Virus record (IMG/VR): IMGVR_UViG_3300013200_000006
Length of the DNA stretch: 64,000 bases
Origin: a virus
Taxonomy: Duplodnaviria; Heunggongvirae; Uroviricota; Caudoviricetes
Reading direction: 5' to 3' (one strand)
In this document: piece by piece, positions 3,576 to 45,769 of the stretch
Layout: each line of letters begins with the position of its first letter
Position numbering within the stretch: position 1 is the first letter of the stretch
Notes under the pieces: generated by a model
What the model saw: the letters and a program-made list of their open reading frames with translations, nothing else
What the model was told of the DNA's origin: nothing
Database searches by the model: none
Position numbers and translations under genes: made by a program

Positions 3576-4154
3576 ATGAAGTTAAGTCAGTATGCCGAAA
3601 GGAAAGGAATTCATTACCGGACGGCGTGGAATCGTTTTAATCAGGGAAAGATTAAAGGTGCTTACCTGGATGAGACAGGTCATATTGTTGTTCCTGATCC
3701 CGAGGAAGAGCTAAAGCAGAAAGCAGCGTTGTATTCTCGCATGTCTACTCACGGACAGCGAAGTGATTTAGAACGTCAGGAACAGCGGTTGAAAGAGTTC
3801 GCGTCGTCTCGCGGGTTAGAGATAGTCCAGTCAGTGACAGAAGTAGCGTCTGGAGTAAGCGACCAGCGACCAAAGCTAATTAAACTTCTCAGCACCCCTA
3901 CCTGGGGAGTTCTGATCGTTGAGCATAAAGACAGGTTGTCACGTATTAACTTTGGCTGGCTTAAGTACTTCCTGTCATTGCTAGGAAAAGACATCATTGT
4001 TGTAGACAACACGATTGATTCCGACGAAGGAAAAGATGAGGATGTTTTCTCACTTCTTTACTCTTACACCGCAAGCGAGTACGGAAAACGAGGAGCAAAA
4101 CATCGTGCTGAACGAGCCCAACGTGCTTTAGAAGGCCGCAGCGATGACCTCTAA
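3576..4154 (+). CDS. tnpA: IS607-type serine recombinase transposase TnpA (MerR-like HTH + resolvase catalytic domain)
   Basis: N-terminal HTH (LSQYAERKGIHYRTAWNRF) and catalytic YSRMSTHGQ serine motif; 11-nt overlap with tnpB. Confidence 0.75.
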   Translation: MKLSQYAERKGIHYRTAWNRFNQGKIKGAYLDETGHIVVPDPEEELKQKAALYSRMSTHGQRSDLERQEQRLKEFASSRGLEIVQSVTEVASGVSDQRPKLIKLLSTPTWGVLIVEHKDRLSRINFGWLKYFLSLLGKDIIVVDNTIDSDEGKDEDVFSLLYSYTASEYGKRGAKHRAERAQRALEGRSDDL

Positions 4155-5589
4155 AACACACCACCGCAGTGTGGAGTTAAAGCACTGTGCTAATCAGGCA
4201 AAAGTAGACCAGATTGCTGACTTACTTCACTGGTTTTCTTCTGCCTGTACCGTGTGCAAGGAAGAGAAAATCCGCCATCTTAAAACTGGTGGGAGGCTTT
4301 TCAGATTCACCAAGGGCCAGTGGTTGATTGGTAAGCCTGATGTGTTTTCTGCACGGATGTTTAAGTCTGTTGAAAACGTTGTTGATGCAGCTCTTAGATC
4401 TTGGCAGGAAGCCTCCGTTATCGCTGGTAGAAAGATTATCAGCGAGTGGAGAAACCAAGACACTAAATTGAGCGACGATGACTTTATTACACTCTACACG
4501 TTGAACAAATCGAAGCGGTGGTGGGATCCTGAAGCTGAGTTTTCGGAACTTCGGAATGAACTTATCGCGGAGATCTTGCGGAAGAATCCGTTTCCAGTGC
4601 TGGATGGAAAAACTGCCACCCTTAATGAGACCGTATGTAGGATTGTGGAATCCAAATCCACTAAGCAAGAATCCTGGTTAGAAATTAGAGGATTTAAAGG
4701 CGTACCTATCTATATTCCTGTGGAAAAGACTTCCTTCTACAACGAGTCTATGGATCAGGGAAAAGAGTGTAACGTAACTCAGCTTCATCTTGATCGAGAT
4801 GAAAAACTGGTCATTCGCCGTGTGGTTGAGAAAGATAATGCTCCGCTTCGTCAAGAAGGAAAAGACATTGGTATTGATTGGGGATTAAAGAGTCTTGTTG
4901 CTACTTCTGAGGGGCAGCTTTTAGGACTGTCTTTATATCCTTGGTTAAAAGAGCGTGATCAAGAACTTGTAGAACTTACTCGAAGCTTGCAGCGACAGGG
5001 GGTTAGGCCGCGTTCGTCTCGCCGCTTTAGGTCGCTACAACGAAGAATCAGACAGTACGTGAAAAACGAAGTTGGACGCGTACTGAACCGTCTTGCCGAA
5101 CAGGATATTCGCTCAATCACTTGTGAACACTTGGATTTTCGTGGAGGTGGTTTATCACGAAGAACAAGGGTTATTGTGTCTCGTGCTGGTAGAGGTGCTT
5201 TCAAACAGAAGCTTGCAGACTTGACCGAAAATCACGGGATTGAAGTACACGAGGTGAACCCCGCCTACACTTCAAAGCAGTGCTCTGGGTGTGGTCTTGT
5301 TGCTGATAATCAGCGAAAGGGTTCGTCCTTTCAGTGTCTTCACTGTGGTAAGGCTCTTCACGCAGATGTAAACGCCGCGAGAAACATTATTGGCAGACGT
5401 TCTGCCCCTAGTGATGGTTTTCGTTATTGTTCAAAAGAATCAGTCCTTGATTATCTAAATCAGGAGTTCACCTCTTACTGGGGTCAAACTTCTGACTTGA
5501 TTATCAAGCGTTTTAACGCCCGTACAGCTGGGCTTCCAGGAACTGTGAATCACAAGCCTGGTGGGACAAGTTTGTCCATTTCAAAGTGA
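4144..5589 (+). CDS. tnpB: TnpB (OrfB) RNA-guided nuclease family protein
   Basis: RuvC-I GIDWGLKSL, CxxC...CxxC zinc finger (CSGCGLV...CLHCGKALHADVNAARNI) with RuvC-III D. Confidence 0.8.
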   Translation: MTSKTHHRSVELKHCANQAKVDQIADLLHWFSSACTVCKEEKIRHLKTGGRLFRFTKGQWLIGKPDVFSARMFKSVENVVDAALRSWQEASVIAGRKIISEWRNQDTKLSDDDFITLYTLNKSKRWWDPEAEFSELRNELIAEILRKNPFPVLDGKTATLNETVCRIVESKSTKQESWLEIRGFKGVPIYIPVEKTSFYNESMDQGKECNVTQLHLDRDEKLVIRRVVEKDNAPLRQEGKDIGIDWGLKSLVATSEGQLLGLSLYPWLKERDQELVELTRSLQRQGVRPRSSRRFRSLQRRIRQYVKNEVGRVLNRLAEQDIRSITCEHLDFRGGGLSRRTRVIVSRAGRGAFKQKLADLTENHGIEVHEVNPAYTSKQCSGCGLVADNQRKGSSFQCLHCGKALHADVNAARNIIGRRSAPSDGFRYCSKESVLDYLNQEFTSYWGQTSDLIIKRFNARTAGLPGTVNHKPGGTSLSISK

Positions 5590-6896: not shown

Positions 6897-7664
6897 CTAC
6901 TTAATTTTGCGGCGCACTAGTTCGGCAATAAGTAGGAAAACCACCAGGCCAATGATCAAAAACGGTGCGTCGTTTTCGTCCAGGAACTGGTCATCTGAAC
7001 TATTGTGATCGTCTGGGTCACCGGAATTAGGATTACGGTCCTTGTTGAAGTTAGGGGTGCCTTCTTTATTGTTAGCATACGACAAGGTAGTGGGGTGAGT
7101 ATCACCGTTGAGAGTATAAGTTACCTCGTAGCCAGAAGGAGTGAGTGTGGTGGCATCAGGATAGTAGATGGTCATGGCAAAATCGTGTGCGCCGCCTGCG
7201 TTCCTAATGTCGCGTTCCATGTGGGATTGTTGGCCGTGGCGGTTGAGGTAGCTATCTTGCGGGGTGATGTTATAGGCGTTGGAGACTCCACCGAGCGAGT
7301 CTGCAATGACATGGCCTTCGTCGAAGTTGGGTTTGTCGGTGCCGGGTACTTTGGCTTCGTCGTTGCAGTAGCGGTTTTTGCTGGTAATGTCTTCAGTTTC
7401 GTCGTTTTGGGGGATGATTTGTTGTGCGGTGACGGTGATGAGTTGTCCGGTGTTGTTGGTGGTGGCGGTGTAGTTGCGTTGTGGGCCGTAGCCGATGTCG
7501 GTGGTGGCGTTGGGTTCGCGGAGTCCGGCTTTGTTGCAGACCCAGGTTTTGTCGGTGTCTAGGCCGTGTGCGGGGGCTGTGGCGGTGTTGGAGGCTGCGT
7601 GTGCGGTAAGTGGGGTGAGGGTGATGAGGGTGGCGGTGGTGAGTGTGGTGAGTAGTTTTTTCAT
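6897..7664 (-). CDS. secreted, C-terminally membrane-anchored DNA/RNA non-specific endonuclease (Endonuclease_NS_2-like)
   Basis: signal peptide MKKLLTTLTTATLITLTPLTAHA; DEGHVIADSLGG...NITPQ...LNR motif resembling the DRGHL...LGG...N.VPQ...N endonuclease family; C-terminal TM + RRKIK. Confidence 0.55.
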   Translation of the reverse strand: MKKLLTTLTTATLITLTPLTAHAASNTATAPAHGLDTDKTWVCNKAGLREPNATTDIGYGPQRNYTATTNNTGQLITVTAQQIIPQNDETEDITSKNRYCNDEAKVPGTDKPNFDEGHVIADSLGGVSNAYNITPQDSYLNRHGQQSHMERDIRNAGGAHDFAMTIYYPDATTLTPSGYEVTYTLNGDTHPTTLSYANNKEGTPNFNKDRNPNSGDPDDHNSSDDQFLDENDAPFLIIGLVVFLLIAELVRRKIK

Positions 7665-7794
7665 GGTGGTGTGGTGTTGGTTGGTTTTTGTTTGCTGGGT
7701 TTATTGTAGTGGGTTGGTGGGTTGTGGGGCAAATTGTTGTGTTTTTGCTGGGGGCGTGGGTCTAGTATGTTTTTGTTGAAGAGAACTTCCTCAT

Positions 7795-8269: not shown

Positions 8270-9115
8270 ATGCTTACCGTCACCGACAAGGTAGTTGTCC
8301 TCACGAACAGGGTACTCGATATGGACATCGACGCCTCCTGCGGCGCGTTTATCGACCGTGTTCCTGTGGTTACCGCTTTGTGTAGCGAAGTCAACGAAGA
8401 CGCAGACATTTTCCGAATCGATGCATTTGTTAAAGAAGAAAACAAGATGCCTTCTTTTACAGCAAACATTGCTTTTGATGCAGAAGGGGGTACTGTGTCT
8501 TTCACTCAAGCTGGAGTTTTAGCGTTCACGGAGTTCGCTGAGGCTTTGGGCGATTCTGTTCTTGTTTTCGTTACCTGCGGTGAAGACGAGGGGGATACGC
8601 TTCGCACGGGTATGTTTCGCATTAGCGATAAGGGCATTGAGGGCTTTGACGGTGGGGAGGCAGGTCAGCGTTTTGTTGATTTGATGGAGGTGGACGATCC
8701 AGAGGAGGTTGAGTTTTGGGATACGACGGGTGTTCCTTCTCGTGTGTCGGATACGGAGCTGATGGGCAGGATGCGTAAGGATTTATTGCGCCAGGAGGAG
8801 ATTGTTGATGAGGCTGTGGCTACTTTTGCTGATTTGCCGCAGGGTAGTGTGATGTTGTTGGACCAGTCTATCGTGGTGATGAAGTGCTCCCATAGTACGT
8901 CGGAGGAGAAGTTTTTCGAGTATGAGGGGTATGGGTCTGCGAGTGAGTATTGCAATCAGGTGGGGTTGTCGTTGGAGGAGTATGCGCAGTTGCGTGATGA
9001 GGCGCAGGTGGGTAAGTGGGTTGCTACTGACGGGGAGTTTTTGACGAATAATGAGGTGGTTTTGTTGGCTGAGGACAATTTTATGGTAGTTTTTGGACCC
9101 GCTCTTGACAAGTAA
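8270..9115 (+). CDS. hypothetical protein
   Basis: 281-aa acidic ORF with AAAGGATCTTC RBS region. Confidence 0.5.
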   Translation: MLTVTDKVVVLTNRVLDMDIDASCGAFIDRVPVVTALCSEVNEDADIFRIDAFVKEENKMPSFTANIAFDAEGGTVSFTQAGVLAFTEFAEALGDSVLVFVTCGEDEGDTLRTGMFRISDKGIEGFDGGEAGQRFVDLMEVDDPEEVEFWDTTGVPSRVSDTELMGRMRKDLLRQEEIVDEAVATFADLPQGSVMLLDQSIVVMKCSHSTSEEKFFEYEGYGSASEYCNQVGLSLEEYAQLRDEAQVGKWVATDGEFLTNNEVVLLAEDNFMVVFGPALDK

Positions 9116-9146
9116 CGCTTGTTGCGTTATAGTGGTTGGTGTTCAA

Positions 9147-9220
9147 CACCCTTGTAGCCCAAATGGCAGAGGCACTAGATTTAGGTTCTAGACAGTGTGG
9201 GTTCAAGTCCCACCAAGGGT
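9147..9220 (+). tRNA. tRNA with anticodon UAG (Leu codon CUA) but type-I short variable loop
   Basis: cloverleaf folded by eye: acceptor ACCCTTG/CAAGGGT, G18G19, anticodon stem CTAGA/TCTAG, loop TTTAGGT, T-arm GTGGG-TTCAAGT-CCCAC, discriminator A. Confidence 0.7.
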
Positions 9221-9221
9221 A

Positions 9222-9294
9222 TGGGAATGTCGTATAGTGGCTAATACCTCAGCCTTCCAAGCTGAAGACGCGGGTTCGATTCCCGTCATTCCCT
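9222..9294 (+). tRNA. tRNA-Gly (anticodon UCC)
   Basis: acceptor GGGAATG/CATTCCC, D-stem GTAT/ATAC, anticodon loop CTTCCAA, T-loop TTCGATT; starts 1 nt after previous tRNA. Confidence 0.8.
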
Positions 9295-9341
9295 CTCACA
9301 GGCCCTATCTTGTTTGGCTTAAGTTTTGGGGCTTGTGTTTT

Positions 9342-9416
9342 GCCTTCGTGGCGCAATTGGTAGCGCAACGCACTTGTAATGCGTAGGTTGCGGGTTCGAG
9401 TCCCGCCGAAGGCTCC
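9342..9416 (+). tRNA. tRNA-Thr (anticodon UGU), CCA encoded
   Basis: acceptor GCCTTCG/CGAAGGC, anticodon loop CTTGTAA, T-loop TTCGAGT, 3' CCA present. Confidence 0.85.
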
Positions 9417-9448
9417 AAATATTGTGTGTGGGAAACTTGGCTCATAGT

Positions 9449-9490
9449 GCCATCCAAACGTGCCAAGGGTGCCTCACCTTTGAAGAGCGG
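9449..9490 (-). repeat. solo copy of IS200/IS605-like end sequence (inverted relative to copies at 13441 and 15046)
   Basis: CCAAACGTGCCAAGGGTGCCTC...CCTTTGA is reverse complement of 15049-15080. Confidence 0.55.
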
Positions 9491-9522
9491 GGAAGACTTC
9501 AACAGACGTGGAAAGGAAGCCA

Positions 9523-9990
9523 ATGCCTAATCCTGCCTATAACCCCACTTCTTCCGTAAAGTTCTACACCTCCCTGACCAATAATCTCTACCTAAACGGC
9601 TACAATACCGAGCTGTGCAACCTCGAATTTAAACCGGAAGCAGGACACTGGTATCTCACCATTCGGGTGTCTGCGCAGGAGCGCTATCACGGCATTGTGG
9701 CGTTCTTCGTTCTTGGTCTCGCTAATGTATCCACGAGTGGAAACCGCGCGGAGGTGACGCACAGGTTGGTCGAGTTCGGCACCTACACCGGCGACGACCC
9801 TGACTTAAGCGACGATGCACTGTTCGACGCGGGGCTGTACCTCGACAGCGCACTTAATCAATCACGCGCCGAGGAGAACGACACGGTAGGTACGCGTCCA
9901 GGACAATGCGGCGTGCATGATGTGGCAGGTGCTATTACGGGAGCCATGACAGCAGCAGGGTTGCGCACGGGAGTGTGTATAACTGGCTAG
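9523..9990 (+). CDS. hypothetical protein
   Basis: ATG after GGAAAGGAAG RBS (track ORF starts at upstream GTG 9508). Confidence 0.5.
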   Translation: MPNPAYNPTSSVKFYTSLTNNLYLNGYNTELCNLEFKPEAGHWYLTIRVSAQERYHGIVAFFVLGLANVSTSGNRAEVTHRLVEFGTYTGDDPDLSDDALFDAGLYLDSALNQSRAEENDTVGTRPGQCGVHDVAGAITGAMTAAGLRTGVCITG

Positions 9991-13440: not shown

Positions 13441-15080
13441 TCCCCATACCTTAAAGGCGGGGATTCCTGTCTCTAGCGAGTTGCTAGGACATGCGGTTTA
13501 CGGATCGTTGAACTACGCTGGCTCGTGGTTAAACCACGAGGATCAGACTGATAAGTTCTCACCGAGGGGTGCTTCCCACCCCAGAAGTTAGTGATTTCTT
13601 CTTTATGATCACGTAACGCTCTCTCAAGAATATTGATCGCAGCATTGTGATCAGCGTTGTCACTGTAACCACACTTTTTGCACAAGAACACCGCTTGGCT
13701 CTCACGGTTTTCTTGAGACACGTGACCACAAGATGAACAACGACGGGAAGTGTTTCGAGGATCAACCTCGATAATTTGTCCACCAGAAAGACGAGCCTTG
13801 TACTGCAAGAACTCACCAAACTGTGCTAAAGCAGAGAGACGAAGTTTGTGATTTAGTGCTCGCTTCGCACTTTGACCATTAGGCAGAAACTCCCCAGGAT
13901 TATGAGGATCTACCTTAGCTTTAGCCCTTTTCGACATTCCTGCCAAGTTGAGTTTCTCAATAGCAATAATGTCGTTTTCTTCTACCAAGCGACGAGAAAC
14001 CTTGTGCTGAACATCTTGAACGACACGAGAGATCTTCGCCTTGGTTTTAGCGATCTCTTTGTCACGCCGCTGCGAGGATTTACTGTTCTTCCCAGCTTTC
14101 TTCGCAGCGTGGTAACTATCAAATCCTAGATCCTCAGCTGATCTCTCTTGGCTTCGCTGAAGACGACGAACTTTATTATCCAAAGACGTGATCGTGTCCC
14201 AGGGAAGATTCTCAAAACCACCCTGACTATCAGCAGACATATGGACAACTCCACGATCAATACCAACAGCAGATCCTTGTCCTCGCTGTTCACGAGGGGT
14301 TACAGCCAGTGGCTCGTTGACAAAGACCAACTGCTTTTTCGTCCAGTTGACCTGAACGGAGGTGTAGGGGCGAATATCTTGGGAAAGACGAACATGAATC
14401 CGAATAACAAATCGCTGTCCCTTATCACCAGGATTTTTCTTTCCCTTGGGGTTCATTCCGGTAATGGACACAATTCCAGTACGGCGACCGACTTTCTCAA
14501 AACGAGCATTGCGTCCACTGTTAAACCAGCACACAAAAGTGTGGTCGTGTTTCTTGTATGACTTAAACTTAGGCATTTTTCCTGGATTTCGGCCAGATTC
14601 TTTGAGTGTTTTGCGTCGTTTTATAGAAGCAAACCATTCTTTGGCTTCGATCTGTTCTGGGCTTTGCAAAACAAGTGAAGGAACAGCCTTGAGAAAGCTA
14701 TGCTCTTCACGTGCCTGTTTATCCGTTGTTTCAACGACGGTGTCCCCCAGCGGGACTAGTACTTTGTCTTTGCCATACTTTTTACGCTGAGATCTGTGAT
14801 CGTTGAATCGTTTTCGCCAGGCAGAACACAGCCATTCTATGACCTGATTAGGGCTTCTAGAAAAGATAGGCTGTGATGAATCATTGTCACGGTCACCAAG
14901 ATACGGTGTAGCACCTTTAATGCTCACCTTGGTAATCTTGACAACTTGACTCATGTCTTTAACTCTACCATATGATTTATGTTAGTGGCAAGGGTGTTGT
15001 TAAATGGCTTTAGAGCTGTGAAATATCCTTAGAGTGCCAATTCCTCCCCACACCTCAAAGGCGGAGGCACCCTTGGCACG
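13441..15080 (-). mobile_element. IS200/IS605-family TnpB-only element (IS1341-like)
   Basis: tnpB flanked by similar direct subterminal sequences TCCTCCCCAYACCTYAAAGGCGG at 13441-13466 and 15046-15072. Confidence 0.6.
13473..14954 (-). CDS. tnpB: TnpB (OrfB) RNA-guided nuclease family protein
   Basis: RuvC-I GIDRGVVHM, zinc finger CSSCGHV...CKKCGYSDNADHNAAINI. Confidence 0.8.
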   Translation of the reverse strand: MSQVVKITKVSIKGATPYLGDRDNDSSQPIFSRSPNQVIEWLCSAWRKRFNDHRSQRKKYGKDKVLVPLGDTVVETTDKQAREEHSFLKAVPSLVLQSPEQIEAKEWFASIKRRKTLKESGRNPGKMPKFKSYKKHDHTFVCWFNSGRNARFEKVGRRTGIVSITGMNPKGKKNPGDKGQRFVIRIHVRLSQDIRPYTSVQVNWTKKQLVFVNEPLAVTPREQRGQGSAVGIDRGVVHMSADSQGGFENLPWDTITSLDNKVRRLQRSQERSAEDLGFDSYHAAKKAGKNSKSSQRRDKEIAKTKAKISRVVQDVQHKVSRRLVEENDIIAIEKLNLAGMSKRAKAKVDPHNPGEFLPNGQSAKRALNHKLRLSALAQFGEFLQYKARLSGGQIIEVDPRNTSRRCSSCGHVSQENRESQAVFLCKKCGYSDNADHNAAINILERALRDHKEEITNFWGGKHPSVRTYQSDPRGLTTSQRSSTIRKPHVLATR

Positions 15081-25376: not shown

Positions 25377-26297
25377 ATGCTATCAGCAGGAATTATTGTC
25401 CTGATTCTCATTATTATCGGCATTCTCGTCATCCTTGACGGGTTCGTCATTGTCCGCACCCGAGAAGCCGCCATCATTGAGCGCCTCGGCAAATTCAATC
25501 ACATTGCTCACGCGGGCCTAAACTTCAAAATCCCAATCATTGACCGCGTACGCGACAAAATTGATCTGCGCGTTCGCCAGTTGGACGTCATGGTCGAAAC
25601 CAAAACGAAGGATAACGTCTTTGTTCAGATCCCCGTCGCCGTCCAATACGAAGTAGTCCAAGGACGCGAGCGCGAAGCCTACTACACACTGTCCGAGCCG
25701 GAAGAGCAGATCGTGGCCTATGTACAAGACAATGTGCGCACATCTGTGGCAACCATGGACTTGGATGAGTCGTTTGCGTCGAAGGACACGATCGCAAAGT
25801 ATGTGGCTGAATCATTGCGCGATAACATGGAGTCTTACGGTTGGAACTTCGTCAACACGCTCGTGACCGATATTCGCCCTGATTCTCGCGTGCGCGAGTC
25901 CATGAACTCCATTAACGCCGCCCAGCGTGAACGTGAAGCTGCTATTGCGCAGGCTGAGGCAGAGAAGATTCGCGTGGTTAAGGAAGCTGAGGGTGCTGCT
26001 GAGGCGAAGAAGCTTGCGGGTCGTGGTGTTGCGGATCAGCGTAAGGAGATTGTTGAGGGTATTGCTCAGCAGTTTGAGTTGCTTCGTGCTGCGGGTGTGA
26101 AGGAGAATCCGGAGTCGTTGATGTTGGTGTCGCAGTATTTGGATGCGATGGTTGATGTGGCGGATAAGTCGCAAGGTAGTGTGATGTTTATGCCGTCTAA
26201 TCCGCAGGGTATGAATGGTTTGTTTGATGGTATGCGGGATGCGTTGTTGTCTGCGGGTCAGGTGCAATCACATTCCGTGCCTACAGTCAACAAGTAA
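25377..26297 (+). CDS. SPFH/band-7 (stomatin/prohibitin-like) membrane protein
   Basis: N-terminal TM, then VIVRTREAAIIERLGKFNHIAHAGLNFKIPIIDRV SPFH core and Ala/Glu-rich coiled coil. Confidence 0.7.
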   Translation: MLSAGIIVLILIIIGILVILDGFVIVRTREAAIIERLGKFNHIAHAGLNFKIPIIDRVRDKIDLRVRQLDVMVETKTKDNVFVQIPVAVQYEVVQGREREAYYTLSEPEEQIVAYVQDNVRTSVATMDLDESFASKDTIAKYVAESLRDNMESYGWNFVNTLVTDIRPDSRVRESMNSINAAQREREAAIAQAEAEKIRVVKEAEGAAEAKKLAGRGVADQRKEIVEGIAQQFELLRAAGVKENPESLMLVSQYLDAMVDVADKSQGSVMFMPSNPQGMNGLFDGMRDALLSAGQVQSHSVPTVNK

Positions 26298-31559: not shown

Positions 31560-32420
31560 CTACTTCTTACGCATATCTACAAGCGGCGCCGCGCTCGAAC
31601 CCTCGATACAGCCCACAGGGGCGGCACCGACCTTTTCGGCGGCCTCGATGCAGCGCTGGGACAGCACCTCGTCAGATAGCGACTTGCGCATAATCTCGTT
31701 GGCTTCGGCGATTTCCTTGGCGGTCTTCTTGGACTGCTCCGCCGCACGGGTATTAGCTACCTCGGATTGCAGCTGATCAATCTTGCGCTGGGTGTCCTCG
31801 TCGTAGTTGATAATCGGCAGGGCTACGCTGCGTACTTCGACTGCTCCGCCCATGCGCTTTTGCATGTCCTCTTTGATGTCGTCGGCGAACTCGTTGAGGT
31901 CAATTCCGCCCTCGGCAATCGCGTCTGCATCGAGCGGGTTGTAGCTGGCGAGCACAGCGTTGACGCTGGCGCGGAACTCGCGGTCAACCAGGTCGTTGTG
32001 GATACGCTCGAACTCGCGGTAGTCCAGGTACATCTGTTCCGCGTCCTCTTCGCGCAGCTGCCACTGGATCGACGCGTCGGCCTTGGCTTCGGACTGGTTG
32101 GCGAGACGAACCCCGATGGCGCTATCGCCGGTATAGCGGTTGGTTTGCAGCGACGCGTCCATCTTCTCGACCTCTTCCCACGGCTTCACCAGGTGCAGGC
32201 CGTTGGACAGGGTGCCGGTGGGCTTGCCGAATGCGGTGACCACGCCGACGGTACGTGCGGGAACAGCCACGGTGCTTGTGGCTACGATCATGACAATGCC
32301 TAGTAAAAGCACGCCGCCACCTGCCGCGCGAGTGGAGACTGCCATGCGTGGGGATACGGCGACGATTAATCCTGCCACGACGAAAATCGCCGCTAGAATG
32401 AGCATGAAAATTTCGAACAT
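31560..32420 (-). CDS. SPFH/band-7-like membrane protein
   Basis: two N-terminal TM helices; GVVTAFGKPTGTLSNGLHLVKPWEEVEKMDASLQT SPFH-like core; C-terminal coiled coil. Confidence 0.55.
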   Translation of the reverse strand: MFEIFMLILAAIFVVAGLIVAVSPRMAVSTRAAGGGVLLLGIVMIVATSTVAVPARTVGVVTAFGKPTGTLSNGLHLVKPWEEVEKMDASLQTNRYTGDSAIGVRLANQSEAKADASIQWQLREEDAEQMYLDYREFERIHNDLVDREFRASVNAVLASYNPLDADAIAEGGIDLNEFADDIKEDMQKRMGGAVEVRSVALPIINYDEDTQRKIDQLQSEVANTRAAEQSKKTAKEIAEANEIMRKSLSDEVLSQRCIEAAEKVGAAPVGCIEGSSAAPLVDMRKK

Positions 32421-37915: not shown

Positions 37916-39517
37916 GTGGCTAGGCAACGACGACACAACGCCCAACCTGTAGACAAGCCCACACGCGAAGAAAAGAAACAAAAATCCACCCACCTTAAAC
38001 GCACCGTCATTCTTGTTCTGTTTATTGTTCTTGTTGTTATTCTCACCGCCGCGGTAGGTCTCTACGGTATCCGAGCGTTTCTTGGCACAGCACAAAGCTC
38101 TACTACTGTCAGCCTTGATACTGACGTTGATGACGAGTACAAGGTTGGTTCCGGTACACAGGACTCTGACAACAAGGGAAAAGGTCCGAAAGATGGGGCT
38201 ATAGATTATCTGCTTGTGGGTGCGGATAGTCGTGTGGACATGCAGGGAAACCCCTTATCTCCGGAGATGGCTGAAAAGCTGCGCGCCGGGGATGTTGATA
38301 CCACAAACACGGATGTGATTATGGTTCTGCGTGTTGCTGCGGACGGGTCGCAGGCCTCGGCGGTGTCTATTCCGCGTGATACGTATATTAGTGACCGTCA
38401 GTTTGGTAACACGAAGATCAATGGTGTCTATGGCATGCACCAGGCGGATAAATTGTCTGAGTTGGGCAAGGATAATGCTGATGCGCAAAAACAGGCTGCG
38501 GACGCGGGTAGGCAGGGTCTTACTGAGGCTGTTGCAAACCTGACGGGTGTGACTGTGGATCATTATGTAGAAGTTGGTCTTGTGGGTTTTTCTCTGTTCA
38601 CAGACGCTGTCGGCGGGGTTGACGTGTGCCTAAATAACGCCACCGAAGACCCAATGACTGGGGCGTCGTTTCCTGCGGGTCAGCAGACTCTTGACGGTGC
38701 GCAAGCGTTGTCTTTTGTGCGTCAACGCTACGGGCTTGCTAATGGTGACTTGGACAGGGTGAAGCGTCAGCAAACGTATTTGACATCGATGGGTAAAAAA
38801 CTTCTTTCTGCGGGTACATTAGCGAACCCGAAGAAGTTAAAGGGGTTGTTAGATGCGGTAGAGCAGTCTGTTGCGATTGACGATAATCTTAATCTTACTG
38901 AGGCCGCAACCACCTTATCGAAAATTGACCCCAGTAACATCACGTTCGAAACCATCCCCGTTATCACCATCGCCGGACAAGGAGACCACGGCGAATCCGT
39001 CGTCGAAGTAGACACCCCCACCGTCCAAAACTTCTTCGCCGCCCGCGCCGGATCTACCACACCCGATACCCCCCGAACAGACAACCACGTCGACCCCCGC
39101 GGCGAAAAACTCCCCGAAGACATGGCTGTTATCGAATCCGTGCCATCCGCCCGAGTATTCTCCGTTGGCACTGACGAAGCCCCGGCGCGCGATGCTGCGA
39201 AACGACTCACTGACGACGGTATCGTAGTCACAGATGTGGCTATGGCACCATCAAAGTGGTCTTCATCAGGCGGCCAGGTACTAGTGCGCTCGGCTACAAA
39301 ATCCGCGCAGCACATCGGTGATCTTCTAGGTCTACCAGTTGTAGAGCAGCGATCCTTACCAGAAGGTACTGTAGTTGCTCTTGTTGGTGCCCCGTCGTCC
39401 GAGGTTCCTGCAGGCGAATTAGACTCTAGTGAAGCAGAAGAATTTGTGCCCTCTGCCCCACCTGTACAGTCCTCAGAAGCCACCAATGTAGAACAAGGAG
39501 CAGTGTGCGTTAATTAA
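37916..39517 (+). CDS. LytR-CpsA-Psr (LCP) family cell-envelope phosphotransferase with LytR_C-like tail
   Basis: N-terminal TM; LLVGADSR, MVLRV...SIPRDTY, ALSFVRQRY LCP signatures. Confidence 0.8.
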   Translation: MARQRRHNAQPVDKPTREEKKQKSTHLKRTVILVLFIVLVVILTAAVGLYGIRAFLGTAQSSTTVSLDTDVDDEYKVGSGTQDSDNKGKGPKDGAIDYLLVGADSRVDMQGNPLSPEMAEKLRAGDVDTTNTDVIMVLRVAADGSQASAVSIPRDTYISDRQFGNTKINGVYGMHQADKLSELGKDNADAQKQAADAGRQGLTEAVANLTGVTVDHYVEVGLVGFSLFTDAVGGVDVCLNNATEDPMTGASFPAGQQTLDGAQALSFVRQRYGLANGDLDRVKRQQTYLTSMGKKLLSAGTLANPKKLKGLLDAVEQSVAIDDNLNLTEAATTLSKIDPSNITFETIPVITIAGQGDHGESVVEVDTPTVQNFFAARAGSTTPDTPRTDNHVDPRGEKLPEDMAVIESVPSARVFSVGTDEAPARDAAKRLTDDGIVVTDVAMAPSKWSSSGGQVLVRSATKSAQHIGDLLGLPVVEQRSLPEGTVVALVGAPSSEVPAGELDSSEAEEFVPSAPPVQSSEATNVEQGAVCVN

Positions 39518-45360: not shown

Positions 45361-45696
45361 GGTCGATACCAGGTGTGGAGTCCATGCACTCAAACACCTG
45401 GTCGTAGCCGTCTGTACGAGAGGTAAGCGGCTCCATGTTTGTGCGCGCTATAACCCCGGATACGAGTGTGGCGCGCATAATGTCTACAAAACGCTGCGGG
45501 TCTGTGGTGTGCTCTACTGTGTCGTGGTACTCGGGGGTGAAAAAGCTTGTATCGCCGTAAACAACGCGGGGGAAGACTTCTTCGGTTTCTACATCGGAAA
45601 CTGTGTCACCTAGGTAGATGCTGGCGGTGATCACAGTATCGTGGGGTGTGACGGTGATAATGAATGAGTCCACTGAAATCCTCCTAGGTATATAAG

Positions 45697-45769
45697 CTCC
45701 CTCAACTGGGTTCGAACCAGTGACCCTTCGATTAACAGTCGAATGCTCTGCCAACTGAGCTATGAGGGA
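45697..45769 (-). tRNA. tRNA-Asn (anticodon GUU)
   Basis: reverse complement folds: acceptor TCCCTCA/TGAGGGA, D-stem GCTC/GAGC, anticodon loop CTGTTAA, T-loop TTCGAAC. Confidence 0.8.

What the first reader, a model, noticed from the sequence alone, without database searches (positions are those of the whole stretch)
9147..9416. Tightly packed tRNA trio containing a type-I tRNA with a Leu anticodon (UAG)
The first tRNA folds into a canonical cloverleaf with G18G19, T-loop TTCAAGT, G37 and discriminator A73. All of these are compatible with leucine identity, and its anticodon loop TTTAGGT gives anticodon UAG. However, it has a 5-nt variable loop, whereas bacterial tRNA-Leu are type II with a long extra arm. 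It is separated from tRNA-Gly(UCC) by a single nucleotide, which implies co-transcription and RNase P/Z processing. Possible explanations are a phage tRNA that decodes CUA with an atypical identity, a mischarged or decoy tRNA, or a tRNA-derived regulatory element.
Basis: seen in the sequence. Interest (0 to 1): 0.55.

Follow-up and report, generated by a model that had tools for sequence, protein, structure and literature searches.

The report
Short-armed phage leucine tRNA, ordinary kind
The odd-looking leucine tRNA without the usual long extra arm is real, but it belongs to a widespread family of short-armed leucine tRNAs found in actinobacteria and many phages. It most likely helps this probable Corynebacterium phage read a codon that its host rarely uses.

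Summary
A promoter-driven cluster encodes tRNA-Leu(UAG) at 9148-9221 (74 nt, 5-nt variable loop), then, after one nucleotide, tRNA-Gly(UCC), then tRNA-Thr(UGU).

The premise that bacterial tRNA-Leu is always type II is too broad:
- The same scaffold (D arm UAGCCCAAYUGGYAGAGGCA, 5-nt variable loop, A73, U48) occurs in hundreds of phage records and in at least 66 IMG/VR contigs.
- It is a chromosomal gene in many Actinomycetota. It also forms the native tRNA-Leu(UAA) and tRNA-Leu(CAA) of Mycobacterium tuberculosis and M. smegmatis.
- Streptomyces coelicolor LeuRS has been shown to charge such a type I tRNA-Leu.

Evidence that it is a working leucine tRNA:
- With the anticodon left free, 100 of 100 viral tRNAs on this scaffold carry leucine anticodons.
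- Across 86 distinct family members the cloverleaf covaries strongly, with 99.2% of cells paired.
- All E. coli LeuRS identity elements are present, and the long arm is not one of them.
- Related phages keep the trio 98.6-100% identical while the neighbouring gene is 86% identical.

CUA, GGA and ACA are 2-6 times more frequent in the window than in two Corynebacterium chromosome samples. This fits codon supplementation.

Verdict: a genuine tRNA-Leu and a new member of a known kind, of low to moderate interest.

The parts
9105..9133 (+). Sigma-70-type promoter TTGACA-17 nt-TATAGT. The inferred transcription start is about 7 nt downstream, giving a leader of only about 7 nt before tRNA-Leu.
   Evidence: Promoter scan: 11 of 12 consensus matches, with 0.6 sites expected from shuffles. 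The stretch from promoter to tRNA start is 42/43 identical in sister phages, while sequence upstream of the -35 hexamer diverges. Function is inferred, not shown.
9148..9221 (+). tRNA-Leu(UAG), type I: 74 nt, 5-nt variable loop ACAGU, A73, no encoded CCA.
   Evidence: ARAGORN; Rfam 58.1 bits; the MFE fold is the cloverleaf. With the anticodon masked, an isotype HMM gives Leu type I 64.9 and 57.0 bits, with His next at 32.6. It aligns to E. coli leuW with a single gap in the variable arm and to M. tuberculosis type I Leu-4 and Leu-1. Family covariation is strong.
9222..9222 (+). Single-nucleotide spacer (T) between A73 of tRNA-Leu and G1 of tRNA-Gly.
   Evidence: Sequence and ARAGORN coordinates. 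The spacer is invariant in sister phages. Spacings of 0-8 nt to a neighbouring tRNA are common for this family in other phages.
9223..9295 (+). tRNA-Gly(UCC). The discriminator U73 is at 9294; ARAGORN adds one further C.
   Evidence: ARAGORN; Rfam 67.7 bits over 9223-9294; best isotype HMM is Gly at 49.8 bits; 73/73 identical in sister phages.
9296..9341 (+). 46-nt spacer between tRNA-Gly and tRNA-Thr. No feature was found in it.
   Evidence: No tRNA or Rfam hit. It is 91% identical in sister phages, less conserved than the tRNAs.
9342..9417 (+). tRNA-Thr(UGU) with an encoded CCA at 9415-9417.
   Evidence: ARAGORN; Rfam 74.5 bits; 75/76 identical in sister phages.

Best explanation
The gene at 9148-9221 is a functional phage tRNA-Leu(UAG). 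It belongs to the 'type I tRNA-Leu' class, a leucine tRNA scaffold in which the long variable arm is replaced by a 5-nt loop. This class is native to Actinomycetota and widespread in phage tRNA clusters.

Inferred mechanism: the three tRNAs are transcribed as one precursor from the promoter at 9105-9133. RNase P cuts at each 5' end. Its cut before tRNA-Gly leaves tRNA-Leu with a 1-nt trailer, which is trimmed, and the host CCA-adding enzyme then supplies CCA. Host LeuRS charges the tRNA with leucine through A73 and the D-loop/T-loop/15-48 core, not through the anticodon or the extra arm. TrmD would make m1G37 at the G36-G37 context. The tRNA then reads CUA, and by wobble perhaps other CUN codons, as leucine.

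Together with tRNA-Gly(UCC) and tRNA-Thr(UGU), it supplies decoders for A-ending codons. These codons are common in this 51% G+C phage and rare in its probable high-G+C Corynebacterium host.

Shown here: the gene, the fold, family membership, the restriction of the scaffold to Leu anticodons, conservation, and the codon-use contrast. Inferred: transcription, processing, leucylation and the benefit to the phage.
For: 1. It is a real tRNA with only one sensible fold.
2. It has a leucine body. It aligns with E. coli leuW (type II, UAG) with a single 8-nt gap confined to the variable arm. D-loop architecture (AAnUGGYAGA), anticodon arm and T loop UUCAAGU are shared. A T5-like phage tRNA-Leu(UAG) with a 9-nt variable region is intermediate, and T5 itself has a 13-nt region.
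3. Its D arm matches, at every base but position 16 (A here, U there), that of the chromosomal type I tRNA-Leu(UAA) of M. tuberculosis and M. smegmatis. The type I tRNA-Leu(CAA) of both species has a close variant of that arm (supplement of PMC11541572).
4. With the anticodon masked, it scores 57.0 bits on a model built only from type I Leu with other anticodons, against 32.6 bits or less for every other isotype.
5. The scaffold is tied to leucine decoding. An IMG/VR scan with the anticodon left free gave 100 distinct tRNAs: UAA 57, CAA 25, UAG 12, GAG 3, CAG 2, AAG 1, and no non-Leu anticodon. The result was the same within all fetched loci.
6. Across 86 distinct type I Leu(UAG) sequences, 99.2% of cells are paired and 15 of 20 pairs have double changes. 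The covariation score is 0.774 against 0.198 for shuffles and 0.18 or less for slid controls. A73 is invariant and U48 nearly so, although neither was in the search pattern.
7. All E. coli LeuRS determinants listed by Giege and Eriani are present: A73, A15-U48, G18G19, A20a and the D/T tertiary pairs. That review states that the long arm and the anticodon are not required (PMC9976931). S. coelicolor LeuRS leucylates a type I tRNA-Leu (PMC6614811).
8. The arm loss is specific to Leu. In the same phage loci tRNA-Ser stays at 83-95 nt and tRNA-Tyr at 79-89 nt.
9. Selection in this lineage is visible. tRNA-Leu is 73/74, Gly 73/73 and Thr 75/76 identical in sister phages, against 85.9% for the adjacent ORF and 53% downstream.
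10. Host and codon use agree. Every named cellular homologue of the window's LCP protein is from Corynebacterium. CTA is 12% of Leu codons in the window against 2-4% in two Corynebacterium chromosome samples; GGA is 19% against 6%, and ACA 19% against 6-9%.
Against: - No expression, processing or aminoacylation data exist for this gene.
- The host species is not identified. The Corynebacterium samples used for codon usage are only the nearest named relatives of one phage gene.
- E. coli LeuRS failed to charge the S. coelicolor type I tRNA-Leu(CAA) in vitro (PMC6614811). Not every bacterial LeuRS accepts every type I tRNA-Leu, and Corynebacterium LeuRS has not been tested.
- In mycobacteria the native UAG isoacceptor is type II. 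The phage gene is therefore not simply a copy of a host UAG gene, if Corynebacterium resembles Mycobacterium in this.
- An HMM of type II Leu with the arm deleted did not discriminate: 23 bits for this tRNA and 30 bits for the window's tRNA-Thr.
- tRNAscan-SE isotype models could not be run.
- Much of the invariance in alignment A2 was imposed by the search pattern.
Confidence: 0.83

Rival explanations
1. Counter-defence tRNA. The phage carries its own tRNA-Leu(UAG), and perhaps tRNA-Gly and tRNA-Thr, to replace host tRNAs that are inactivated by tRNA-targeting immunity or toxin-antitoxin systems. On this view the short variable loop is itself adaptive, because it removes the handle that some toxins use to select long-armed tRNAs. 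This is compatible with the tRNA being a normal leucine tRNA; it differs only in why the phage keeps it.
For: Phage tRNAs that escape anticodon nucleases, PARIS and retron effectors are documented (papers listed; discussion quoted). [quoted passage not shown] The toxSAS FaRel2 specifically targets tRNA-Gly and tRNA-Thr, the other two members of this trio (bioRxiv 10.1101/2024.07.05.602228). Mycobacterial native tRNA-Leu(UAG) is type II whereas this one is type I. Phage tRNA-Leu is short in phages of many host phyla, while Ser and Tyr keep their arms.
Against: No defence system is known that targets tRNA-Leu(UAG) through its long arm. MenT3 does not prefer tRNA-Leu. Type I tRNA-Leu is native and essential in the host's order, so no special selective story is needed. 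The codon-use contrast already explains all three tRNAs. Ser and Tyr keep their arms for a simpler reason: their synthetases need them and LeuRS does not. Nothing was tested directly.
Confidence: 0.12
2. Atypical identity or recoding. Lacking the long arm, the tRNA is charged by a synthetase other than LeuRS, so CUA is partly or wholly read as another amino acid in phage-infected cells. The parallel is yeast mitochondrial tRNA-Thr(UAG).
For: It is a type I body with a Leu anticodon, which is unusual by textbook rules. A recent review still states that tRNA-Leu carries a long arm everywhere except in animal mitochondria (PMC9976931). E. coli LeuRS did not charge one type I tRNA-Leu.
Against: The scaffold carries only the six Leu anticodons in 100 of 100 viral examples. 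In mycobacteria it is the only scaffold listed for the CAA and UAA anticodons (UUG and UUA codons), so it must accept leucine there. S. coelicolor LeuRS leucylates it. A73, A15-U48, G18G19 and A20a are all present. The base pair at 3:70 is C-G, not the G:U that AlaRS needs. There is no long arm or G73 for SerRS. The anticodon loop has 7 nt, not the 8 of yeast mt tRNA-Thr1 (PMC4756836 abstract). Most other synthetases read anticodon bases, which here spell Leu (PMC9976931). CUA is used at 12% of Leu codons throughout the window, with no sign of avoidance.
Confidence: 0.02
3. A non-translational tRNA-like element: a decoy, a regulatory RNA, a processing signal, an integration-site remnant or a decaying pseudogene.
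For: It lacks an encoded CCA and has A1-U72 instead of the usual G1-C72. It sits between two TnpB transposon genes in a mobile-element-rich region.
Against: All cloverleaf stems are intact, and the conserved tertiary nucleotides U8, A14, G18G19, U33, U54-A58 and C56 are present. The gene is 98.6% identical in sister phages where neighbouring DNA is 53-86% identical, and its single change is R57-to-R57. The family shows compensatory changes in three stems. A near-consensus promoter lies immediately upstream. Mycobacterial type I tRNA-Leu genes also lack an encoded CCA, being 74-bp genes. A1-U72 occurs in 6 of the 86 family members. No integrase was found next to it.
Confidence: 0.03

Closest known systems
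Type I tRNA-Leu of Actinomycetota: Streptomyces coelicolor tRNA-Leu(CAA) (Fan et al. 2019, PMC6614811), and M. tuberculosis / M. smegmatis tRNA-Leu(CAA) and tRNA-Leu(UAA) (sequences in the supplement of PMC11541572)
   Same: 74-nt body, 5-nt variable loop, A73, no encoded CCA. The D arm is the same as in the mycobacterial UAA tRNA except at position 16 (UAGCCCAAUUGGCAGAGGCA there, A16 here), and the mycobacterial CAA tRNA has a close variant of it. For S. coelicolor, leucylation by the single cellular LeuRS has been shown experimentally.
   Different: The anticodon here is UAG, whereas in mycobacteria the UAG isoacceptor is type II. The gene is phage-borne, in a three-tRNA operon. The acceptor stem starts A1-U72.
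Short tRNA-Leu genes of cultured phages, all annotated simply as tRNA-Leu: Pectobacterium phage DU_PP_V (T5-like), Bacillus phage P59, Rhodococcus phage Francesca, Synechococcus phage S-CRM01, Salmonella phage beppo
   Same: The same type I scaffold. In DU_PP_V the D arm plus anticodon arm are 97% identical to the window. They sit in tight tRNA clusters, often 0-8 nt from a neighbour.
   Different: The hosts belong to different phyla. The acceptor and T stems differ, with compensatory changes. Many of these genes encode CCA. The window phage has no close relative among sequenced phages.
Canonical bacterial type II tRNA-Leu(UAG), E. coli leuW
   Same: The anticodon arm is nearly identical (CACYAGAUUUAGGUUCURG). 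It shares the T loop UUCAAGU, the D-loop size and G18G19 position, A73 and C2-G71.
   Different: leuW has a 13-nt variable arm with a stem, and a D stem GCG.../...CGC rather than GCC.../...GGC. The window tRNA has only ACAGU.
Animal mitochondrial type I tRNA-Leu
   Same: A leucine tRNA without the long arm, recognised through A73 and A14 (PMC9976931).
   Different: The mitochondrial tRNAs are degenerate, A/U-rich and charged by a dedicated mitochondrial LeuRS. No specific sequence similarity was tested or is claimed.
Dimeric and multimeric tRNA precursors of phage T4 (from general knowledge, not checked here)
   Same: Adjacent phage tRNAs separated by very few nucleotides, co-transcribed, cut by RNase P. 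Members that lack an encoded CCA are completed by host enzymes.
   Different: A different phage group and different tRNAs. T4 tRNA-Leu is type II (from memory).
Yeast mitochondrial tRNA-Thr1(UAG), which reassigns CUN to threonine (PMC4756836)
   Same: A type I tRNA with anticodon UAG.
   Different: That tRNA has an enlarged anticodon loop and is charged by a specialised ThrRS. The window tRNA has a normal 7-nt loop and a leucine-specific body.

Membership tests
tRNA (Rfam RF00005) | Score above the family gathering threshold, with a full-length cloverleaf match | tested here: met
   58.1 bits against a threshold of 29, model positions 1-71 of 71, E = 7.5e-12. ARAGORN calls it a tRNA. The MFE fold is the cloverleaf.
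tRNA (Rfam RF00005) | Helices supported by compensatory substitutions among homologues | tested here: met
   86 distinct homologues: 99.2% of cells paired; 15 of 20 pairs have changes on both sides; covariation score 0.774, against 0.198 for shuffles and 0.18 or less for slid controls. The three D-stem pairs never vary because the search pattern fixed them.
Type II (class II) tRNA | Variable region longer than 10 nt that forms a stem-loop | tested here: not met
   The variable loop is ACAGU, 5 nt. Relative to E. coli leuW there is an 8-nt gap.
Leucine identity set for bacterial LeuRS (E. coli / Aquifex rules, PMC9976931) | Discriminator A73 | tested here: met
   A at 9221. It is invariant in 86 of 86 family members although it was not part of the search pattern.
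Leucine identity set for bacterial LeuRS (E. coli / Aquifex rules, PMC9976931) | Core tertiary elements: U8-A14, Levitt pair A15-U48, G18G19 position, A20a, G18-U55, G19-C56, U54-A58 | tested here: met
   All of these nucleotides are present in the sequence. U48 is at least 90% conserved in the family without having been imposed. The D-loop motif is found in 88% of type I Leu, 50% of type II Leu and 17% or less of every other isotype. The three-dimensional pairing itself was not tested.
Leucine identity set for bacterial LeuRS (E. coli / Aquifex rules, PMC9976931) | Actual aminoacylation with leucine by the host LeuRS | not testable with these tools
   This needs biochemistry. There is a positive precedent in S. 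coelicolor LeuRS, and a negative one in E. coli LeuRS acting on the Streptomyces type I tRNA.
Actinobacterial/phage type I tRNA-Leu scaffold | D arm UAGCCCAAnnGGYAGAGGCA combined with a 4-6 nt variable loop and the T loop GUUCRAnUC | tested here: met
   The window matches the pattern that retrieves 66 viral contigs and 75 genome contigs. Apart from position 16, its D arm is the same as that of the M. tuberculosis/M. smegmatis type I tRNA-Leu(UAA).
Actinobacterial/phage type I tRNA-Leu scaffold | The scaffold carries only leucine anticodons | tested here: met
   With the anticodon left free, 100 distinct viral tRNAs gave UAA 57, CAA 25, UAG 12, GAG 3, CAG 2, AAG 1, and none that is non-Leu. The result was the same in all fetched loci.
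Alanine identity (AlaRS) | G3:U70 wobble pair | tested here: not met
   Positions 3:70 are C-G (acceptor ACCCUUG/CAAGGGU).
Serine identity (SerRS) | Long variable arm and G73 | tested here: not met
   5-nt loop and A73. C2-G71, an anti-determinant against SerRS in E. coli tRNA-Leu, is present.
CUN-to-Thr reassigning tRNA-Thr1(UAG) of yeast mitochondria | Enlarged anticodon loop | tested here: not met
   The anticodon loop is the standard 7 nt, UUUAGGU. The contrast comes from the PMC4756836 abstract.
Codon-supplementing phage tRNA | The cognate codon is more frequent in the phage than in the host | tested here: inconclusive
   CTA is 12% of Leu codons in the window against 2-4% in two Corynebacterium chromosome samples. 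GGA (19% against 6%) and ACA (19% against 6-9%) follow the same pattern. However, the host species is only inferred, genes were called crudely, and host tRNA supply is unknown.

The most novel reading that the evidence does not exclude
Loss of the long arm in phage tRNA-Leu may be an adaptation rather than a neutral simplification. Across phages of Actinomycetota, Proteobacteria, Firmicutes and Cyanobacteria, tRNA-Leu of every anticodon is short, while tRNA-Ser and tRNA-Tyr keep their arms. A short-armed tRNA-Leu could escape defence or toxin-antitoxin enzymes that pick out long-armed tRNAs, such as MenT/AbiEii-type nucleotidyltransferases or Schlafen-like nucleases. It could also serve as a 'universal' leucine tRNA that many hosts' LeuRS will charge. 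In that case the window's Leu-Gly-Thr operon would be a counter-defence cassette; Gly and Thr are the targets of the toxSAS FaRel2.
Probability: 0.1. Interest if true: 0.6.

Novelty: new member of a known kind. Interest (0 to 1): 0.25.

Why it matters
For this window it matters little. The gene is a normal part of a phage's translation toolkit and should be annotated tRNA-Leu(UAG).

The wider pattern seen along the way is more useful. Short-armed leucine tRNAs are common in phages and in Actinomycetota, yet reviews still describe tRNA-Leu as long-armed everywhere except in animal mitochondria. Only one paper in the searched library discusses 'type I tRNA-Leu', and it does not mention phages.

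The pattern affects three things. It bears on isotype-based quality filters in tRNA annotation. It bears on ideas about how LeuRS recognises its substrates, since E. coli LeuRS reportedly rejects one such tRNA although relatives of coliphage T5 encode them. It also bears on whether the long arm is a liability in phage-host conflict.

Tried and rejected
- Alternative fold or anticodon: rejected. ARAGORN, Rfam and the MFE fold all agree.
- Antisense Rfam hits to 'Plastid-ycf2 5UTR' at 33 and 24.8 bits (gathering score 65.7): these are mirror images of the tRNAs and were dismissed.
- Close relatives of the window: none among sequenced phages or in IMG/VR, using the PolA and upstream-ORF proteins. 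Relatives were found only through the protein database and the contig look-up.
- An HMM built from type II tRNA-Leu with the arm deleted did not discriminate: 23 bits for this tRNA and 30 bits for the window's tRNA-Thr. I dropped it as evidence.
- blastn of the tRNA against plasmids gave only weak hits from mixed taxa and said nothing about the host.
- Literature searches for phage type I tRNA-Leu, plus reading the phage-tRNA papers, found no description of the phenomenon in phages. Absence from this open-access library does not prove it is undescribed.
- Bacterial Schlafen nucleases as a long-arm-reading defence: the paper gives no such evidence for bacteria.
- tRNAscan-SE isotype models were not available, so an HMM surrogate was used instead.
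Full report
**1. What is in the sequence**

ARAGORN finds three tRNA genes on the + strand: tRNA-Leu(UAG) at 9148-9221, tRNA-Gly(UCC) at 9223-9295 and tRNA-Thr(UGU) at 9342-9417. A fourth gene, tRNA-Asn(GUU), lies far away at 45696-45769 on the - strand.

The Rfam tRNA model scores the trio at 58.1, 67.7 and 74.5 bits against a gathering score of 29. The minimum-free-energy fold of the 74-mer is the cloverleaf, so no competing fold would give another anticodon.

Read from the sequence, the Leu gene has these features:
- a 7-bp acceptor stem, starting A1-U72;
- a 3-bp D stem with a C13·A22 mismatch, and G18G19 in a 10-nt D loop;
- a 5-bp anticodon stem and the loop UUUAGGU (U33, anticodon UAG, G37);
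- a 5-nt variable loop, ACAGU;
- a 5-bp T stem, the T loop UUCAAGU and the discriminator A73;
- no encoded CCA.

A single T (9222) separates it from tRNA-Gly. A near-consensus sigma-70-type promoter (TTGACA-17-TATAGT, 11 of 12 matches) lies at 9105-9133. No terminator-like site occurs within 8800-9800.

**2. What the surrounding element is**

The window looks like part of a large, poorly characterised phage. It encodes:
- a family A DNA polymerase, about 40% identical to those of Gordonia, Nocardia and Corynebacterium phages;
- RecE-like and YqaJ-like exonucleases and two SPFH-domain proteins;
- two TnpB genes and an LCP (LytR-CpsA-Psr) protein.

It has no close relative among sequenced phages or in IMG/VR. 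The same contig does occur in public metagenome assemblies.

Every named cellular homologue of the LCP protein is from Corynebacterium, at 40-58% identity. The TnpB is closest to copies in Bifidobacterium and Mycobacterium replicons. I infer an actinobacterial host, most likely Corynebacterium. The window has about 51% G+C, whereas two Corynebacterium chromosome samples have 62-63%.

**3. The tRNA is not an oddity but a member of a large family**

- A sensitive blastn of the 74-mer against 50,697 phage records hit 264 records. Of the 60 top-ranked rows shown, 51 lie under a feature annotated tRNA-Leu; the other nine carry no annotation there.
- ARAGORN on sample loci showed short tRNA-Leu genes in unrelated phages. 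These are Pectobacterium phage DU_PP_V (UAG, 5-nt variable loop, D arm plus anticodon arm 97% identical to the window), Bacillus phage P59 (UAG and UAA), Synechococcus phage S-CRM01 (CAA), Rhodococcus phage Francesca (UAG) and Salmonella phage beppo (UAA, plus UAG with a 9-nt variable region).
- A strict pattern for the scaffold with a UAG anticodon matched 66 IMG/VR contigs.
- The same pattern matched 75 contigs from one-genome-per-species bacterial genomes. Most of these are solitary chromosomal genes in high-G+C Actinomycetota, including Pseudonocardiaceae, Nocardia, Herbidospora and Actinophytocola. The rest lie in tRNA arrays of various phyla.
- The supplement of a M. tuberculosis tRNA study lists the native tRNA-Leu(CAA) and tRNA-Leu(UAA) of M. 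tuberculosis and M. smegmatis as 74-nt type I genes. The UAA tRNA has the D arm UAGCCCAAUUGGCAGAGGCA, which the window tRNA matches except at position 16; the CAA tRNA has a close variant of it. The UAG, CAG and GAG isoacceptors of those species are type II (PMC11541572).
- Fan et al. showed that the single LeuRS of Streptomyces coelicolor leucylates its type I tRNA-Leu(CAA) (PMC6614811).

**4. It has a leucine body, not a generic type I body**

- Aligned with E. coli leuW (type II, UAG), the window tRNA differs by one 8-nt gap confined to the variable arm. The anticodon arm, T loop and D-loop architecture are shared. The beppo tRNA is an intermediate, and T5 itself has a 13-nt variable region. 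Arm length is therefore labile within one phage group.
- With anticodons masked, profile HMMs gave 64.9 bits for type I Leu(UAG) and 57.0 bits for type I Leu with other anticodons, which is an independent set. The next isotype, His, scored 32.6 bits.
- The D-arm motif is present in 88% of type I Leu, 50% of type II Leu and 17% or less of any other isotype.
- The most direct test was to rescan IMG/VR with the anticodon left free. The 100 distinct tRNAs recovered carried UAA (57), CAA (25), UAG (12), GAG (3), CAG (2) and AAG (1). These are the six leucine anticodons and nothing else.
- The same holds among about 960 distinct tRNAs in all the loci I fetched.

**5. It is under selection as a tRNA**

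Among 86 distinct type I Leu(UAG) sequences, 99.2% of helix cells form standard pairs. Fifteen of 20 pairs show changes on both sides. The covariation score is 0.774, against 0.198 for shuffles and 0.18 or less when partners are slid.

A73 is invariant and U48 nearly invariant, although neither was part of the search pattern. The D arm's invariance, by contrast, was imposed by the pattern and proves nothing.

In sister phages whose neighbouring gene is 84-93% identical in protein, the whole cassette is retained:
- tRNA-Leu 73/74 identical, with its single change at R57 in the T loop;
- tRNA-Gly 73/73 and tRNA-Thr 75/76 identical;
- promoter to tRNA start 42/43 identical;
- upstream ORF DNA 85.9% identical, and the 300 nt downstream 53% identical.

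**6. Why LeuRS should accept it**

According to the identity review of Giege and Eriani, E. coli leucine identity rests on A73, the A15-U48 Levitt pair, G18G19, A20a and the D/T-loop tertiary pairs. The anticodon and the long arm are dispensable, and minimal tRNA-Leu lacking both remains a substrate (PMC9976931). All of these elements are present here.

By contrast, the same review and treat the long arm as a recognition element for SerRS. This fits my observation that in the same phage loci tRNA-Ser (83-95 nt, with two short exceptions) and tRNA-Tyr (79-89 nt) keep their arms, while tRNA-Leu of every anticodon is mostly 74-80 nt.

One caution applies. E. coli LeuRS did not charge the Streptomyces type I tRNA-Leu(CAA) in vitro, so acceptance depends on the enzyme. 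For a host in the Mycobacteriales, where two essential isoacceptors are type I in Mycobacterium, acceptance is the natural expectation. It remains untested.

**7. What it is for**

All three tRNAs of the operon have U34 and read A-ending codons. In 80 crudely called ORFs of the window, CTA is 12% of Leu codons, GGA 19% of Gly codons and ACA 19% of Thr codons. In two Corynebacterium chromosomal samples the figures are 2-4%, 6% and 6-9%.

This is the classic signature of codon supplementation by a phage whose G+C content is lower than its host's. It is suggestive rather than decisive, because the host species is not known.

A counter-defence role cannot be excluded and is not mutually exclusive. 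Toxins that read the long variable loop exist in mycobacteria, for example MenT3. The toxSAS FaRel2 targets exactly tRNA-Gly and tRNA-Thr. No system is known that would make a short-armed tRNA-Leu(UAG) advantageous.

**8. Processing (inferred)**

The promoter should start transcription about 7 nt upstream of tRNA-Leu. RNase P cleavage at the 5' end of tRNA-Gly would leave a 1-nt trailer on tRNA-Leu. Because CCA is not encoded, trimming and CCA addition by host enzymes are required. The same is true of the 74-bp mycobacterial type I tRNA-Leu genes. tRNA-Thr encodes its own CCA. Spacings of 0-8 nt between this tRNA-Leu and a neighbour are common in other phages.

**9. Rivals**

- Atypical identity or sense-codon recoding is contradicted by the restriction to Leu anticodons, the identity elements, the absence of G3:U70, of a long arm and of G73, the normal 7-nt anticodon loop, and the ordinary use of CUA.
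- A decoy, regulatory element or pseudogene is contradicted by covariation, purifying selection and the promoter.

**10. Novelty and verdict**

The gene is a new member of a known kind. Type I tRNA-Leu has been characterised biochemically in Streptomyces. It is present in mycobacterial tRNA sets and is routinely annotated as tRNA-Leu in phage genomes.

What appears under-described is the breadth of the phenomenon in phages and its restriction to leucine. In the searched library only one paper uses the term 'type I tRNA-Leu', and it does not mention phages. That wider pattern deserves a systematic survey. This single locus is of low to moderate interest.

Noticed in passing
L001-L071 and L162-L250 (phage loci); for example L002 4000-4154, L005 539-615, L001 1494-1570: In phages of many host phyla, tRNA-Leu of every anticodon is mostly 74-80 nt with a 5-nt variable loop, while tRNA-Ser and tRNA-Tyr in the same clusters keep their long arms. 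The hosts include Enterobacteria, Bacillus, cyanobacteria, Actinomycetota and Xanthomonas. This set includes a T5-like phage of Pectobacterium, although E. coli LeuRS is reported not to charge a Streptomyces type I tRNA-Leu. No paper describing this for phages was found.
   Followed up: partly
L072-L146 (genome contigs); for example L074, L126, L094, L104: Type I tRNA-Leu(UAG) is a solitary chromosomal gene in many high-G+C Actinomycetota, including Pseudonocardiaceae, Herbidospora, Actinophytocola and Lentzea. In Nocardia it sits in a conserved small array, Trp-(Arg)-Leu(UAG)-Arg-Gln. In mycobacteria, by contrast, the type I isoacceptors are CAA and UAA and the UAG isoacceptor is type II. Which isoacceptor is short therefore varies between actinobacterial lineages.
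   Followed up: partly
window 9223-9295 and 9342-9417: The two companions of tRNA-Leu, tRNA-Gly and tRNA-Thr, are exactly the two tRNA species reported as targets of the antiphage toxSAS FaRel2 (bioRxiv 10.1101/2024.07.05.602228). This may be coincidence. The acceptor-stem determinants were not compared.
   Followed up: no
window 4144-5589 (+) and 13473-14954 (-): Two TnpB / Cas12f-like (OrfB_IS605 plus TNB domain) genes flank the tRNA region in opposite orientation. The closest plasmid-borne relatives are in Bifidobacterium longum megaplasmids (48%) and a Mycobacterium plasmid (41%). No TnpA or guide RNA was looked for.
   Followed up: no
window 37916-39517 (+): The phage encodes an LCP (LytR-CpsA-Psr) cell-wall glycopolymer ligase homologue. 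Related metagenomic versions (53-64% identical) lack the C-terminal LytR_C domain that the Corynebacterium chromosomal homologues have. A cell-envelope enzyme in a phage is unusual and might modify the host surface.
   Followed up: partly
window 25377-26297 (+) and 31560-32420 (-): There are two SPFH/Band 7 domain proteins (PHROG 200, 'lipoprotein') in one phage region. Their function there is unknown.
   Followed up: no
window 45696-45769 (-): A fourth, solitary tRNA, tRNA-Asn(GUU), lies far from the trio. AAC use is 70% of Asn codons in the window against 68-83% in the Corynebacterium samples. Codon supplementation therefore does not obviously explain it.
   Followed up: partly
L156 (ends at 3982), L159 (ends at 3981), L157, L158: Several independent short-read assemblies of sister phages break inside tRNA-Gly, about 135 nt after the upstream ORF. 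This suggests a repeat or a strain-variable junction there, for example similarity to a host tRNA-Gly or variable cargo downstream. Sequence downstream of tRNA-Thr is only 53% identical between relatives.
   Followed up: no
L151 3285-3645, 4809-4980, 5839-6084 (phage T5 record): The T5 GenBank record annotates several 'tRNA-like stable RNAs with unknown functions' interspersed with its tRNA genes. It also notes that T5 tRNA-Leu(UAG) becomes an amber suppressor when its anticodon is changed.
   Followed up: no
window 6897-7664 (-) and 7495-7779 (+) region, by homology with L152 1639-2931: The genes just upstream of the tRNA operon in sister phages carry Endonuclea_NS_2 and YAcAr domains. They were not examined in the window itself.
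   Followed up: no
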